The position numbers and the translations under genes are program-made. A stretch of DNA of 64,000 nt from an uncultured Planctomycetota bacterium (GTDB lineage Bacteria > Planctomycetota > Planctomycetia > Isosphaerales > Isosphaeraceae): NCBI GenBank assembly GCA_963823665.1, contig CAWGMQ010000004.1, positions 1,728,001-1,792,000 on the forward strand, read 5' to 3'. Each line of letters opens with the position of its first letter. The first letter of the stretch is position 1. Under the pieces are notes generated by a model. That model had not been told where the DNA came from. It saw only the letters and a list, made by a program, of their open reading frames with translations, and did no database searches. This document shows, piece after piece, positions 9,026-18,038 of the stretch.

Positions 9026-9090
9026 ATGGCACATGTGACAATTGACGCCGCTTTCGCGGGCAATCCAGGATAACGGGTGAAATGCAGAGG

Positions 9091-9159
9091 CTTGTATCCG
9101 GAGTGCCGCAGAAAGTGGCTCGCCTTCACGAAGGGCGGTGTCGGCGCTTCGGATACAAG
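9091..9159 (+). repeat. Terminal fold-back hairpin of the IS91-like element
   Basis: CTTGTATCCGGAGTGCCG (9091-9108) pairs with CGGCGCTTCGGATACAAG (9142-9159) with two G-T wobbles; inner hairpin CGCCTT..AAGGGCG. Confidence 0.9.
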
Positions 9160-9185
9160 GGATTGGACTGAACCGCGGGCAGGCG

Positions 9186-9207
9186 GGCGACTATGGAGAT
9201 TCAATCG
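9186..9207 (-). other. oriIS-like rolling-circle origin motif
   Basis: CGATTGAATCTCCATAG downstream of tnp resembles the recalled IS91/ISCR oriIS (TTGAACTTCCTATA). Confidence 0.45.
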
Positions 9208-9432
9208 CGGGCTTTCCAGCAGGTGAGCGCGTTGTCGGCCGGGAGCGGTGATTCGATCGCTGGAAAGCCGGTTGGTGTGCCGTAGCCGGTGCTCGATTTA
9301 GGCCCAACCTGGGCTTTCTTCAGGCCTATGGACACGAAATCCTGCTCGCCGAACAGGGAATCCACGGTCACCCTCGAAGGGCGGTGTTGACGATGGCGAG
9401 TCATCAGGTTGCTCCCGTCCATCTGGAAGGGT

Positions 9433-10668
9433 TTAGGAAGTATCAAATGCCACCGCCTCGGGTGTGGGACCGCAGTGAGGTCCTTCACTCGGGTCGGCCG
9501 GAAGCTCCCCGAGAATCGCGACGATGAACATATAGCCCTTGCCGCAAGCAGGGCAGACGTGCATCGCGTGTTCTCCTTCGGCAGCGACCTGCTCTTCTGG
9601 AGCCGGCTCAGGCGCCCCCGGTTCCAAGGAGGGCTCGGTCTCCTCGAGTAGCTCGCGACACAGTTCGAGATTCTCCCGGCACACCCGGTTAGCGAGGAAG
9701 CCATAATGCCGGATTCGGACGAATCCGGCGGGTAACACATGCAGGAGGAATCGGCGGATGAATTCGATCGCTTTGAGCGCCATCGTCTTCTGCTTTCCCT
9801 CGTGCGCGTAATCCTTCCAGTGGAACGTAACCTTGCCGTCCTCAACCGTGATCAGCCGGTGATTGCTGATCGCGACCCGGTGGGAGTACCGGGCCAGGTA
9901 TTTCAGCACCTGTTCCGGGCCACCAAAGGGAGGCTTGGCGTAGACAACCCATTCGGTCTTGGCACTGGCAGTGAGCCGGCGCTGAAACTCGGCCGGGTCG
10001 GCCAACGAAGCGAGCGTGCCGTGCAAGGAAAGCTTGCCCTGATCGAAGGCGAACTTAAGCAGAGCGAGAAACTTCCCCCGAAAGAGGCGGCTGAGGACAC
10101 GGACCGGTAGAAAGAAGCCGGGTTTGCAAGGGACCCATCGCGCGCGATCAGGCGACAGCCCGCCACCCGGCACAACGCAGTGGACGTGCGGGTGATGTTG
10201 CAGGTTCTGGCCCCAAGTGTGGAGGACGGCCAAGAAGCCGATCTCAGCCCCGAGGTGCTTCGGGTCGGCGGCGATCTGCTGCAAGGTCTCGGCGGCGCAT
10301 TTGAACAGGAGACCGTAGACCACCCGCTGATTCTGCAAGGCAATCGGGTCGAGCGCCGCCGGAAGCGTAAATACGACGTGATGATATTCGACCGGCAGCA
10401 ATTCCGCTTGCCGGGCCTCCATCCACTCCGCGGCGGCGGTTGCCTGGCACTTCGGACAGTGCCGATTGCGGCATGAGTTGTAGGCGATCTGCTGATGGCC
10501 GCATTGATCACATTCCTCGATGTGTCCGCCTAGGGCAGCAGTCCGACAAGCTGCGATGTCGCGCAGAGCGCGACGCTGCTCGGACGAGAGCGTGTCGCCA
10601 TATCGGTCGAGAAAAGCATCACCATAGTCGCGAACGACCTCGGCCACTTCGAGCCGAGGTCGGTTCAT
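9433..10668 (-). CDS. IS91-family transposase (Zn-binding + Y2 HUH domain)
   Basis: YNSCRNRHCPKC, HVVFTLP, LHTWG...HPHVHC (HUH), YLARY (Y2), RIRHYG. Confidence 0.95.
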   Translation of the reverse strand: MNRPRLEVAEVVRDYGDAFLDRYGDTLSSEQRRALRDIAACRTAALGGHIEECDQCGHQQIAYNSCRNRHCPKCQATAAAEWMEARQAELLPVEYHHVVFTLPAALDPIALQNQRVVYGLLFKCAAETLQQIAADPKHLGAEIGFLAVLHTWGQNLQHHPHVHCVVPGGGLSPDRARWVPCKPGFFLPVRVLSRLFRGKFLALLKFAFDQGKLSLHGTLASLADPAEFQRRLTASAKTEWVVYAKPPFGGPEQVLKYLARYSHRVAISNHRLITVEDGKVTFHWKDYAHEGKQKTMALKAIEFIRRFLLHVLPAGFVRIRHYGFLANRVCRENLELCRELLEETEPSLEPGAPEPAPEEQVAAEGEHAMHVCPACGKGYMFIVAILGELPADPSEGPHCGPTPEAVAFDTS

Positions 10669-11496
10669 GGCCGGGACTCACCGGGTAGGGGACCGATCCG
10701 GTCGAGGGGGCTGCGCGTTGCCTCGACAACGCCTGGCGACACGTGGGTATAAATGGCGGTTGTCTCGAGCTTGCGATGGCCGAGAAGCACCTGAATTGTC
10801 CGGAGGTTGGTGCCGGATTCGAGCAAATGGGTCGCGAAACTATGCCGCAGAGTATGCACCGTAACGTGCTTGCCCAAGCCGGCGTGTTGCGCGGCGCGGA
10901 CGCAGATTTTGTGCACGGCTTTTCCGGTGATGGGTTTGTCTGGGACGTCCCCGGGGAAAAGCCAGTCGGTCGGCCGAACGATTTTCCAGTATTCACGGAG
11001 CAGCGCGAGGAGACGAGGCGAGAGCATGACGTAGCGGTCCCGACGTCCTTTGGCTTGTCGGATGCGGATGACCATGCGCTTGCTGTCGAGGTCATCAACT
11101 CGAAGGCCGATGACCTCAGAGAGCCGTAAACCCGCGGTGCTTGATGTCGATCAGCCCTGCGAAGAACGTGGCGACTTCGTCTGAGCTGAGAACGACAGGG
11201 AGGCGCTTGGGTTGCTTTGGGAAGGGAATGCGATCCAGGGCATCCTTTCGACCGAGGGTGACCTCGTAAAGGAACCGCAACGCGGCGAGGGTCTGGTTGT
11301 AGACGCTCCAGGAGACCTTCTTCTCTTGAATGAGGTGGAGCAGGTAAGATCGAACCCCCTTTCTGCCGAGGTGCTCGGGCGACCGCCTGTAATGTCCTGC
11401 GAAGAATCTGACACGCGAAACGTAGGCGTTGATGGTCCGTGTTGAGAGATTCTTGAGCTTCATGTCCTCGATCATTTGGCGTCGTAGCGGTGTCAT
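10665..11496 (-). pseudogene. Tyrosine recombinase (N-terminal SAM-like domain) broken by a short internal deletion at ~11135
   Basis: N-half MTPLRRQMIEDMKL...KHR joins out of frame to AGLRLSEVIGL...KGRRDR...HTLRHSFATH...LLGH...TAIYTH; the usual short linker is missing. Confidence 0.85.
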
Positions 11497-11646
11497 GATG
11501 TGCTCCCGTGTTGAGGTAAAAAGGGGAAGCGTTTATCATGGCTAGGTAGAAGCGCTGAGCGTGTGCGTGTGTCACGCAACCGGGCGCCTGTGACGCGGCA
11601 AGCCGGGCTTGTGTGTTAAAGAATCAAGGACGCGGCGGACAGGCGA

Positions 11647-12086
11647 TGGGCAGCGAAGCGATCGTCCAAAACTTGATCGGTGTCTTCCCTCGAAGGATAG
11701 TGGAGGGTCCAGTAACCCCACATGATTGCCCTGAGTGTCTGGAGTTGCGCGGGCAACTCACCGGGACCACTTGGCCTGATGTCCCGCTGGAGTTCATTCG
11801 CGACCATCCTGACGTATTACCGCTGCTGTCGCCGGAAGCCTATCTGACCTTCCTACCCGCGTGGCTACACCAACGTGTCCTCGAGCCTGAGGGCGAAGTG
11901 GCTTCCATGCTCCTCGTGAACCTCGCATGTGATTCCGATCCGACAGGGTTTGCATTCGAGCAACGCGACGCCATCATCGAAGTGGCCCGATTCATCGTGC
12001 GGAACAACGGCTGGGGGCCGGAAGACCCTGAAAACGCGAAGTCCCTCGTCGCGATCGAACGGGCATGGGCGGACGTCATAGCCTAA
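11647..12086 (+). CDS. Hypothetical passenger protein (DUF6714-like)
   Basis: HDCPEC...WPDVP...LLSPEAYLTFLPAWL; lies between the recombinase and the right end of the element. Confidence 0.6.
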
Positions 12087-12210
12087 ACCCCGGGGCGGAG
12101 AATGCGCGAGTGTAACCGACGCATTTGGCGTGGACCCTGAGCGTGTGATCCCGACATACCGCTGATAGACCCGTAGCAGGAAGGCCAACGCTTCAAAGGT
12201 CTACCGCGCA

Positions 12211-12246
12211 GCGGTTTAGTCCAATGTCCTTTATTACCCGTTATCC
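12211..12246 (+). other. Right junction of the IS91-like element, dif-like site C
   Basis: GTTTAGTCCAA TGTCCT TTATTACCCGT; outer arm matches site A arm X (13/14). Confidence 0.7.
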
Positions 12247-14021: not shown

Positions 14022-14353
14022 TGTTTCGAGGGTCAGAGATCATCAAGATTGAGCGATACGGACCTGGCGAGCATGGGGCGGAGGGGACCGTCAGGGTCGC
14101 TACCTTTACTCTCTTTGGACGAGAGTTCATGTGCATCGACTACCCGATCAAGCATGAGTCTACCTTTACGCCATCGATGTCTGCCTTTGACGAATGCGAG
14201 AGCGACGCGGAGATCGAAGATGTGTTCAGCCGGCTTTCGGTCGGTGGGCAAGGATTGATGCCGCTCGGCAATTATGGGTTCAGCACAAAATTCGGGTGGG
14301 TGAAGGACCGGTTTGGTCCGTCGTGGCAGCGTAACCTTTCGAGAACGCTGTAA
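14005..14353 (+). pseudogene. VOC/PhnB-like gene copy 2, 5'-truncated and frameshifted
   Basis: Aligns to 16060-16392 from codon ~20; ends NLSRTL*. Confidence 0.85.
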
Positions 14354-15565: not shown

Positions 15566-16003
15566 GCTTCCGTATAGCATGTTCGAGGCAGGGGGCAAAC
15601 CGGAATTCCCCGGGCGGATCAAGATTCGACCAGGCGGAGGCCGAGGAGTTCTTTCAACGAATCGCGGGAGGCGAGGACGTCGCGCGCGTCGGCGGTGAGC
15701 GAGAAGCGTTCGCGAAGCTGCTCGATCTAACGGTCGGTGACGGCGGGGGTGGCGATGATCAGATCAGAGTAGCCGGATTGCAAGTGCGTAGATGGTATGC
15801 AGGCTTTCCGTCGCCGAGGACACCGGAGGCGGTGGTGCGGAGCCTGCGGTGGAATTCGCGCTTCAGGCGGAACAGCATTTCCAGCCCAGGTTGCACGTAT
15901 CCCCGATGGCTGCGTTGCGTGGGCTCGATTGCTCCAATACGCTCGAGGGATTTACCGTTGTCCCGGCGAGCGGCCAAGTCAATCGAAGAGGAGTGGAATC
16001 ACG

Positions 16004-16504
16004 ATGGCACGCAGCGTTTCGACGCATCTCATGTTCGAGGGAGTTGCCGAAGAGGCGATGAATTTTTATGTCTCGCTGTTTCGAGGGTCAGAGATCATCA
16101 AGGTTGAGCGATATGGAGCTGGCGAGCATGGGGCGAAGGGGACCCTCAGGGTAGCGACCTTTACGCTCTGTGGGCGAGAGTTCATGTGCATCGACAGCCC
16201 GATCAAGCATGAGTTTACGTTTACGCCATCGATATCTATCTTTGTCGAATGCGAGAGCGACGCGGAAATCGAAGACGTGTTCGGCCGGCTTTCGGCCGGT
16301 GGGCAAGTATTGATGCCGCTTGACAATTACTGGTTCAGCACAAAATTCGGCTGGGTGAAGGATCGGTTTGGGCCATCGTGGCAGCTTAACCTTGCGGTGG
16401 TTCACCAGGCCGCCGCTCGAGAAACGCCCCACCAGGCCGCGACCAAGCCGATGAAAAGCAGGCCCGCGAAGGTCGCAACCGCGACTGACAAGACGGCGTT
16501 CTGA
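16004..16504 (+). CDS. VOC/PhnB (3-demethylubiquinone-9 3-methyltransferase-like) family protein, copy 3
   Basis: THLMFEG.AEEAMNFY, FTPSIS, LMPLDNY, FGWVKDRFG.SWQL; C-terminal read-through overlaps the convergent gene. Confidence 0.88.
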   Translation: MARSVSTHLMFEGVAEEAMNFYVSLFRGSEIIKVERYGAGEHGAKGTLRVATFTLCGREFMCIDSPIKHEFTFTPSISIFVECESDAEIEDVFGRLSAGGQVLMPLDNYWFSTKFGWVKDRFGPSWQLNLAVVHQAAARETPHQAATKPMKSRPAKVATATDKTAF

Positions 16505-16896: not shown

Positions 16897-17406
16897 TCAC
16901 GATCCGTGGTCAGCCAGACGCTTGATGTCTTTGACCAAGAGGTAAAGGTGGAGTGCGTCCGTTGGCGACGCGGTGAAGCCGAAATGCTCGTAGAATCGGC
17001 GGGCATTTTCGTCCTTCGCGTGGACCGCCAGGGCGCGGATACCGGCGATGCCGGCGGCCTGGACTGTCCGCAGCATCGCATCCTTGAGCAGACCCGCACC
17101 GATCCCTCGGCCTGGCGATCCGCTGCTGACCGCGAGCCGGGCCAGAAGCATGATTGGCACGGGATGGCGGGCCAGGCCTTTGGTCAGTCGGTCAGGCGCG
17201 TCGTCATAAGACACTTCGCCCACTGCCAGCGAGTAGAAGCCGACGACCGTCTCCCCGGAGAGTGCTACATAGGTCTGGGCAACGCCTGCACGAAGGTTGA
17301 CCAGGGCGAATCGCGAAAGGAAGCGGTTCAGCTCCTCCTGGCCGCAGTCGAATCCGGAAACAACGTGATCGGCCCGGAGCTTCTCGATCCGGAGTGGATC
17401 GGCCAT
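16897..17406 (-). CDS. GNAT acetyltransferase toxin (AtaT/TacT-like)
   Basis: FDCGQEELNRFL, VVGFYSL, LLARLAV...GRGIGAGLL, VHAKDENARRFYEHFGF. Confidence 0.9.
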   Translation of the reverse strand: MADPLRIEKLRADHVVSGFDCGQEELNRFLSRFALVNLRAGVAQTYVALSGETVVGFYSLAVGEVSYDDAPDRLTKGLARHPVPIMLLARLAVSSGSPGRGIGAGLLKDAMLRTVQAAGIAGIRALAVHAKDENARRFYEHFGFTASPTDALHLYLLVKDIKRLADHGS

Positions 17407-17408
17407 CG

Positions 17409-17693
17409 TCAATCGCCGCGCTCAAAGACGCTCCGTTCCTGGAGCAGGCGGCCGAGGCGGGGGATTGAACGGGGAGCGGCGTCGAGCGCGTCCATAAACG
17501 CCTTCCAGCGGTCGGCATCGAGGCCGAAACGCGTCCGGTCCGCCAGGGTTTCATCGGCGCGTACGAGGGCGCTCTCGAGCACGAATTCGCTCACCGTCCG
17601 GCCCGCTGACTCTGCGGCACTCTGAAGTTTCTGCTTGGCTTCCGGCGAAAGCCGGAGGTCAAGTTTGGCGGTCCGCGTCGATCGTTGCGGCAT
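17409..17693 (-). CDS. DUF1778 RHH antitoxin (AtaR/TacA-like)
   Basis: KLDLRLSPEAKQKLQSAA...TVSEFVLESA...WKAFMDALD. Confidence 0.9.
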   Translation of the reverse strand: MPQRSTRTAKLDLRLSPEAKQKLQSAAESAGRTVSEFVLESALVRADETLADRTRFGLDADRWKAFMDALDAAPRSIPRLGRLLQERSVFERGD

Positions 17694-18038
17694 GGTAACC
17701 TCTCCTTGTCGTTTTCCAGAAGTCAAGGATAGCACGCCTGCCCGACATTGTCACGACAAAACCGTAGATGGGTCCGCGTGTGGCGGTTCTTTGCCTGAGG
17801 ATGACCGAAATGGAGAGAATCGAGGCTAGCCCGCCTCGCGGACGTCTGAAGCGCGTCATGAAGTATTGGCCACACCTGGAGTGAAGCGCTGAGCGGGTTT
17901 GTGCGGGGTGGGGCGAGCTCGATCGGTGGTTCGGACCGCGGTGGAACACGTTGCTCGACAAAAAGAGGTTCGTTCTCTGCGATCACGCAGGGCTTCGCTC
18001 AACATGATCGCGCGTTGCGCAAAGAGCGATCGGAGTGC

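What the first reader, a model, noticed from the sequence alone, without database searches (positions are those of the whole stretch)
9068..12246. IS91-like element whose joined ends form a CTXphi-attP-like ssDNA hairpin: candidate rolling-circle element integrated by a tyrosine recombinase
Seen: joining the right end (12211-12227) to the left end (9091-9176) gives GCGGTTTAGTCCAA-TGT-CTT-GTATCCGGAGTGCCG...CGGCGCTTCGGATAC-AAG-GGA-TTGGACTGAACCGC. This folds into one long stem with 11-6-11 geometry: GCTTCGGATAC resembles an XerC arm and TTGGACT(A/G)AAC loosely resembles an XerD arm. In the 6-bp core, the 3 bp next to the XerC-like arm pair perfectly (CTT/AAG) and the other 3 (TGT/GGA) pair poorly. 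All arm mismatches are G-T wobbles on the + strand only. An oriIS-like motif lies inside the element (9186-9207), not at its end. Known: CTXphi integrates its folded (+) ssDNA through such a hairpin, needing homology only next to the XerC site; several IS91-family elements carry an upstream tyrosine recombinase whose role I do not know to be established. Inference: the Y2 HUH protein produces a ssDNA circle and a tyrosine recombinase (element-encoded or host Xer) integrates it, so this would be an IMEX-like element rather than a classical IS.
Basis: partly seen in the sequence, partly recalled or inferred. Interest (0 to 1): 0.92.

Follow-up and report, generated by a model that had tools for sequence, protein, structure and literature searches.

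The report
Jumping gene with CTX-like folded end
This is a damaged copy of a widespread jumping gene whose two ends, once joined, fold into a single-stranded hairpin that its own recombinase probably inserts into the chromosome the way cholera phage and integron cassettes are inserted, a mechanism not yet tested for this family.

Summary
The element is real: an intact IS91-type transposase, a recombinase gene broken by a 26-bp deletion, and one passenger gene (ISAzo26 type). Multi-copy relatives, empty alleles at two loci and four natural end-to-end junctions put the ends at 9083 and 12224, with crossover N|TT.

The corrected join supports a CTX-like fold better: an 11-nt core faces a 6–8-nt core (CTX: 12 and 5–7). 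The strand opposite the genes folds better in 58 of 58 junctions. Wobbles in the end-to-end stem favour that strand 58:1.

Targets centre on ATAA-N6-TTAT. The break lies at the spacer edge, and the adjacent base matches the element's last base in 59 of 73 sites. Both point to tyrosine-recombinase chemistry. Host XerCD is unlikely: sites are dispersed and none is dif.

oriIS- and terIS-like motifs are internal. Gene-less minis of 202–346 bp keep the same ends. The gene pair and its kinship to integron integrase are published; I found no paper on the mechanism. This scan noted similar elements before (16 findings). No activity was tested.

The parts
9083..12224 (-). Whole element, 3142 bp (genes on the minus strand = 'top' strand)
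   Evidence: Ends from multi-copy relatives and family-wide motifs; empty alleles in relatives. No empty allele of this very site was found.
9068..9082 (.). Target half-site next to the 3' end (host DNA); AA at 9081-9082 is target-derived
   Evidence: Inverted repeat with 12236-12246; the dinucleotide varies with the target at 3' junctions
9083..9093 (+). 11-nt long core strand of the folded attachment site; crossover at 9082|9083
   Evidence: Identical within 13 of 14 multi-copy groups; conserved CCTCT-like bulge
9091..9159 (+). Inner stem-loop carrying the two L arms (9094-9104 and 9146-9156)
   Evidence: Fold; 666 of 800 cells Watson-Crick, with several pair types per column
9157..9162 (+). 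6-nt short core strand
9163..9176 (+). Inner R arm; pairs with the far end 12211-12224 only after the ends are joined
   Evidence: Longest inverted repeat of the region; 520 of 600 cells Watson-Crick
9191..9205 (-). oriIS-like motif, about 110 nt inside the end; candidate nick region for the HUH protein (inferred)
   Evidence: In 78 of 97 elements; resembles the last 20 nt of IS1294/IS91/IS801-type ends
9433..10668 (-). IS91-family Y2 HUH transposase, 411 aa, intact
   Evidence: NF033538 472 bits, PF04986, PF14319; HUH and YxxxY motifs
10665..11496 (-). Tyrosine recombinase gene, integron-integrase-related, broken by a 26-bp deletion at 11132/11133
   Evidence: PF13495 and PF00589 halves; alignment to L044; intact paralogue in the same genome, L006
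11613..12086 (+). Passenger gene, DUF6714-like (lead only), in the 5' leader
   Evidence: No Pfam hit; Atlas feature score 0.94 with recognition value below threshold; absent from L044
12200..12224 (-). 5' end: TT + GGAC + 4 nt + short palindrome (terIS-like); outer R arm 12214-12224
   Evidence: IS1294 begins GAAC + 4 nt + palindrome
12225..12246 (.). Target 6-bp spacer (12225-12230) and second half-site (host DNA)

Best explanation
An autonomous single-strand integrative element. (1) A circular form joins 12224 to 9083; this junction exists as natural head-to-tail joins in relatives, though a free circle was not seen. (2) The strand opposite the genes (window +) folds into an attachment site with two recombinase arms and an 11-versus-6-nt core; shown by covariation. 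(3) The element's own IntI-related recombinase exchanges that one strand at AA|N with a double-stranded, dif-core-like target (ATAA-N6-TTAT), helped by 1-2 nt of homology, and replication resolves the product; inferred from junction signatures. (4) The HUH protein acts as a rolling-circle initiator at the internal ori-like motif, on a circle or on tandem copies, and supplies the folding strand; inferred and the weakest step. How a single integrated copy first circularises is open. This copy's recombinase is dead, so it could move only with help in trans.
For: Ends and crossover: empty alleles L173/L167 and L171; natural joins L099, L116; L291; L333. Fold: bottom strand more stable in 58 of 58; wobbles 58:1 and 65:10; the pair at the crossover is kept in 40 of 40 with three Watson-Crick types plus G-T. 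Target dyad with a 6-bp spacer is the best fit, 1.6 mismatches against 2.6-2.9 for other spacers. The -1 base matches in 59 of 73 (shuffle mean 21.8, max 37) and in 26 of 32 families. A recombinase gene lies upstream in 149 of 154 transposase hits, duplicates included. All six catalytic residues are present in 29 of 29 recombinases. An 11-bp spacer cannot match a 6-bp target as duplex (established knowledge; stated for CTX attP1). IS91 uses the bottom-strand circle, the strand that folds here. Minis keep the 5' end and hairpin.
Against: No experiment and no free circle: reads gave no junction. 29 of 73 targets differ from the consensus at 4 or more of 8 positions, and the -1 match is only 11 of 23 in minis. 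In both loci with empty alleles the -1 bases differ. 27 of the 58 wobbles come from one column, and relatives are not independent. A terIS-like end is conserved, which a pure Rep role does not need. The integrated 3' end cannot complete the fold (-22.0). Relatives with 42-46% transposase identity did not fit my end patterns. The end patterns were built from the first examples.
Confidence: 0.66

Rival explanations
1. The HUH transposase does all cutting and joining, as in IS91/IS608. It nicks after ATAA in the target and after the AA at the 5' end; the hairpins are its binding sites and the recombinase is an accessory, for example a resolvase.
For: oriIS- and terIS-like motifs are conserved. 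The folding strand is the strand IS91 moves. Insertion is oriented and without target duplication.
Against: The target has a second half-site exactly 6 bp away, and homology lies on the spacer side of the break; both are expected for 3'-phosphotyrosine chemistry, not for HUH. The ends lie outside ori and ter. Only 1 of 78 elements has an IS91 tetranucleotide after ori.
Confidence: 0.13
2. The recombinase works on duplex DNA (excision and integration as in small integrative elements, or strand-biased as in SEs). The fold matters only for replication of the circle.
For: The recombinase lacks the IntI insertion needed for attC recognition. SEs circularise one strand without an HUH protein.
Against: The duplex junction has an 11-bp spacer against the target's 6 bp. 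The inner arm 90 nt away covaries with the far end: own partner 12.35 pairs against 11.17 +/- 0.13 shuffled. XerCD recombines folded CTX DNA without such an insertion.
Confidence: 0.13
3. A true IMEX: host XerCD integrates the folded strand.
For: Arms resemble dif arms at 7/11 and 6/11. The target consensus equals the inner bases of dif. Core asymmetry is CTX-like.
Against: Five copies are spread over one 4.9-Mb chromosome and four over three contigs of another genome. The best target match to E. coli dif is 15 of 22, and this site scores 9 of 22. There is no family-wide C/D arm asymmetry. The element's own recombinase is conserved.
Confidence: 0.05

Closest known systems
IS91 family; ISAzo26-type members with an upstream tyrosine recombinase
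   Same: Transposase family. The same two-gene layout and ends occur in the record annotated ISAzo26. The IS91-XerD gene pair is reported in 15 phyla (PMC9208149, passages).
   Different: Against IS91/IS1294: the element runs about 110 nt past the ori-like motif and 2 nt past the ter-like motif, the target is a dyad rather than a tetranucleotide, and the junction is not ori-ter.
CTXphi attP(+) / IMEX
   Same: Two inverted sites about 90 nt apart fold on one strand; long and short core strands (11 and 6-8 against 12 and 5-7; PMC4246890 section 7); cut at the arm edge; short homology; tandem copies.
   Different: Own recombinase; many dispersed targets rather than dif; crossover beside the arm that looks XerD-like; no phage genes.
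Integron cassette (attC x attI, IntI)
   Same: Crossover just 3' of AA on the folding bottom strand (AAC in attC; PMC4792948, passages); site completed only when the ends join; recombinase is sister to IntI in my tree, and this kinship is already noted in 10.1101/542381 (passages).
   Different: No IntI insertion; the base at the crossover varies (A, G, T, C) instead of fixed G; 3-5 nt core bulge; the unit carries its own recombinase and HUH gene.
SE elements (strand-biased circularising)
   Same: Tyrosine recombinase and single-strand exchange.
   Different: SEs encode no HUH endonuclease (PMC9345347, passages).

Membership tests
IS91 family | Y2 HUH transposase with zinc-binding N-terminus | tested here: met
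IS91 family | Element ends at oriIS next to a CTTG/GTTC-type target | tested here: not met
   IS1294/IS91 end 4 nt after the motif; here the end is about 110 nt further out; 1 of 78 has the tetranucleotide
IS91 family | terIS: tetranucleotide plus subterminal palindrome at the very end | tested here: inconclusive
   A like motif is present but 2 nt inside the end; the family-wide count is biased by my pattern
IS91 family | No target duplication | tested here: met
   Empty alleles
IS91 family | Transposase-catalysed insertion | not testable with these tools
   Needs mutants
IMEX (CTXphi type) | Folded single-strand attP with unequal cores | tested here: met
IMEX (CTXphi type) | Integration at dif | tested here: not met
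   Dispersed copies; at most 15 of 22 arm bases match E. coli dif. The hosts' own dif sites were not located.
IMEX (CTXphi type) | No own integrase; relies on XerCD | tested here: not met
   Recombinase gene in 149 of 154 hits, catalytic residues intact in 29 of 29
Integron cassette system | IntI with the additional (I2) domain | tested here: not met
   About 40 aa shorter than IntI4 there; below the TIGR02249 cut-off
Integron cassette system | Bottom-strand fold with crossover after AA | tested here: met
Integron cassette system | Invariant AAC/GTT triplet at the crossover | tested here: not met
   Pair types AT 11, CG 9, TA 6, G-T wobble 14 of 40
Integron cassette system | attI site and cassette array around this copy | not tested
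   No attC model was run on the window

The most novel reading that the evidence does not exclude
ISAzo26-type 'IS91' elements are not transposase-inserted IS but a class of autonomous single-strand integrative elements. They combine a rolling-circle initiator, an I2-less sister of the integron integrase and a CTX-like folded site, and have gene-less minis and cargo-bearing forms. They would be the complete, self-encoded system that PMC4792948 found missing when it speculated on a CTX-like origin of integrons. Their target range, from dif-core-like dyads (this clade) to G|TT attC/attI-like sites (acidobacterial clade), would trace the path to cassettes.
Probability: 0.4. Interest if true: 0.9.

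Novelty: new variant of a known kind. Interest (0 to 1): 0.76.

Why it matters
It assigns a testable job to the orphan recombinase of a family found across many phyla and redefines the family's ends. It offers a living model for how recombination of folded single strands, and so integrons, could have begun before the I2 domain existed. A 200-350-bp mini defines the cis needs of a possible single-strand DNA integration tool. Insertion into recombination cores of other mobile elements would let it ride on them or disable them.

Tried and rejected
Empty allele of this site: the left flank was not found in 40 relatives.
Reads: four soil runs, kept as contigs and holding small shares of the words, gave no joint between the ends; this is uninformative.
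Junction patterns: 0 hits in viral contigs; 1 in metagenome contigs; 1 of 401 genomes (L335 not examined).
The target palindrome is not a repeat family: one further 2-mismatch hit against one control hit.
Rfam: no match. Terminator scan: nothing at the ends.
Sinorhizobium loci L168 and L169 did not match my key; L170 and L172 share only the left flank.
The first tree (quick) did not resolve elements against IntI.
A two-register reading of the ends was replaced by one register because it gives a 6-bp spacer throughout. For the acidobacterial clade G|TT fits equally well.
My first reading, 'attC-like cassette', was softened to a CTX/attC hybrid.
Elements at 42-46% transposase identity were left out of all end statistics.
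In one search the labels xc/xd were swapped and two window arms were off by one base; one search corrects the window values.

Full report
Anatomy. On the minus strand the window holds a tyrosine recombinase gene (11496-10665) overlapping an intact IS91-family transposase (10668-9433; NF033538 472 bits). The recombinase has a 26-bp deletion at 11132/11133 relative to a 78%-identical element. A passenger gene lies on the plus strand in the leader. The genome holds a second, intact element (L006), a 5' end with another passenger (L008) and further remnants. Relatives named in records are Isosphaeraceae and other Planctomycetota, Acidobacteriota and Proteobacteria. A recombinase gene precedes 149 of 154 transposase hits (some loci were fetched twice).

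The observation. Pairwise comparison of copies within genomes shows the shared sequence starting at TTGGAC and running past the hairpin. In 14 multi-copy groups the 11 nt before the 3' break are constant in 13, while the three bases outside the 5' end vary in 8. In Sinorhizobium plasmids, empty alleles exist for two loci (L173 and L167 for L162; L171 for L165). They show insertion at N|TT without duplication. At 3' junctions the dinucleotide follows the target's own palindrome (CT, AA, CA), so the break lies before it. Four natural head-to-tail joins confirm the junction: L099 and L116, L291 and L333. Carried over to the window, the element is 9083-12224. This is inferred from relatives; no empty allele of this site was found.

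The fold. I analysed the 97 elements with a recognisable 3' end, 76 with both ends; all have transposase identity of 50% or more. In 58 of 58 distinct joined ends the strand opposite the genes is more stable (mean 5.3 kcal/mol), and all z-scores are below -3. Over 40 non-redundant junctions the end-to-end stem has 520 Watson-Crick cells, 58 G-T on that strand, 1 G-T on the other and 21 mismatches. The inner stem has 666, 65, 10 and 59. The pair flanking the crossover is kept in 40 of 40 with A-T, C-G, T-A or G-T. An inner arm pairs better with its own 5' end than with another element's (12.35 against 11.17 +/- 0.13). The long core exceeds the short core by 5 nt in 27, 4 nt in 10 and 3 nt in 3. 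Caveats: kin are not independent, one column gives 27 of the 58 wobbles, and the end patterns were derived from the first examples.

The target. There are 73 distinct sites (76 elements, minus two tandem-internal rows and one duplicate). They centre on ATAA-N6-TTAT: 15 exact, 34 within two mismatches, 29 with four or more. A 6-bp spacer fits best, and the break is at its edge. The spacer base at the break equals the element's last base in 59 of 73 (shuffles 21.8, max 37), the next base in 46 (27.1, max 39), and the third in 32 (21.8, max 34, not beyond the shuffles). With one site per family the counts are 26, 20 and 12 of 32. A tyrosine recombinase cuts at the arm edge and frees a 5'-OH strand that must pair, so this is its signature; an HUH enzyme reads the other side (established knowledge). 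The rule is loose: both loci with empty alleles mismatch at -1. No site matches E. coli dif at more than 15 of 22 arm bases, and copies are dispersed. Two rhizobial sites abut tandem recombinase genes; I read these as RIT ends from annotation and recall. An acidobacterial clade uses sites that read equally well as G|TT, attC/attI-like (the attC consensus is recalled).

The enzymes. The best solved relative of the intact recombinase is IntI4 (135 bits), then an archaeal XerC-like recombinase (130), with about 40 aa fewer where IntI has its insertion. All six catalytic residues are present in 29 of 29. In a tree of 52 proteins (seven rows dropped: five long branches, one duplicate, one frameshifted), element recombinases and 14 IntI are split from nine Xer-like and RIT-like proteins with support 99.7/100. 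The elements form one group at 85.5/96. Sampling is thin and lacks XerA. The kinship is already in print (10.1101/542381, passages). IS1294, IS91 and an IS801-like element end 4 nt after a motif that these elements carry about 110 nt inside their end (78 of 97), with a tetranucleotide following in 1 of 78. The 5' end is TT followed by a terIS-like GAAC/GGAC, 4 nt and a palindrome. IS91 inserts only its bottom-strand circle (PMC13181058, introduction and passages), which is the strand that folds here.

Minis and cargo. A covariance model of the 3' end hit 40 of 121 genomes of the family. I picked 38 hits by hand as lacking a listed transposase nearby. Of these, 23 are gene-less elements of 202-346 bp with the same 5' end, hairpin and crossover; 12 pass a strict ori pattern, and most others show a degenerate one by eye. 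Seven of 71 full elements have long leaders; where a clear cargo gene was seen, it lies on the folding strand.

Mechanism. Shown by sequence: the ends, the junction, the fold, the strand bias and the target rule. Inferred: integration of the folded strand by the element's recombinase with replicative resolution (about 0.75), and the HUH protein acting as a Rep at the internal origin (about 0.55). Unexplained: how a lone integrated copy circularises, since its 3' end cannot complete the fold, and why a terIS-like end is kept. Tandem copies could serve as donors, as for CTX.

Literature. Nine searches found no description of these ends or this mechanism. The library lacks most subscription journals and ISfinder/TnPedia, and no supplements were read. 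Seen as passages: PMC9229058 (ISShvi3 beside an attC, forming a cassette-like structure), PMC9345347, PMC11322121 (ISWz1-flanked circles), PMC5737581, PMC8138268, PMC3414803, PMC5357621, PMC10288648, PMC9208149, PMC8876359 and PMC4792948 (CTX is 'not a complete system' as it lacks its own integrase). This scan already holds 16 findings on the family in at least 15 genomes, mostly attC-like or attC-homing. My attC-like reading was written before that look-up. Added here are the CTX-like core asymmetry, the dif-core-like targets with microhomology, the empty alleles and the minis.

Verdict. The feature is real, the junction is corrected, and the model is largely upheld with the element's own recombinase rather than host Xer. 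It is a known gene pair with an apparently undescribed and untested mechanism.

Noticed in passing
L008:6880-8322 (G000:C5): A 5' end and leader of the same family with a different 407-aa passenger gene but no recombinase or transposase; homology stops about 20 nt before the recombinase start.
   Followed up: partly
window:6134-6427, 14129-14353, 15797-16504: Three related ORFs, two with the same MARSVSTHLMFEG start, that look like pieces of one duplicated gene.
   Followed up: no
window:12649-13971 (-): A second, XerD-like tyrosine recombinase about 400 bp from the element; its C-terminus looks replaced by unrelated sequence.
   Followed up: no
window:6410-8198 (-) and 16897-17735 (-): Gene pairs that look like an AbiE-type nucleotidyltransferase pair and a GNAT toxin-antitoxin pair (labels recalled, not searched).
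   Followed up: no
L067, L068, L090, L094, L108, L117, L161, L164 (3' flanks): Proteobacterial insertions sit beside 20-bp palindromes of back-to-back TTATG...CATAA-like arms, suggesting arrays of recombinase cores.
   Followed up: partly
L131-L142, L157-L159: A divergent recombinase plus IS91 clade (42-46% transposase identity), multi-copy, whose ends did not fit my patterns.
   Followed up: no
L334 (MT839798.1): A record filed as 'Bacteriophage sp.' is a recombinase plus IS91 transposase element.
   Followed up: partly
L054, L064, L143 leaders: Serine-resolvase-like genes carried as cargo in the 5' leader (label by eye).
   Followed up: no
window:12204-12214: The CCGC of the 5' end can pair either with its local palindrome or with the inner arm, a possible switch between the terminator-like hairpin and the attachment fold.
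   Followed up: no
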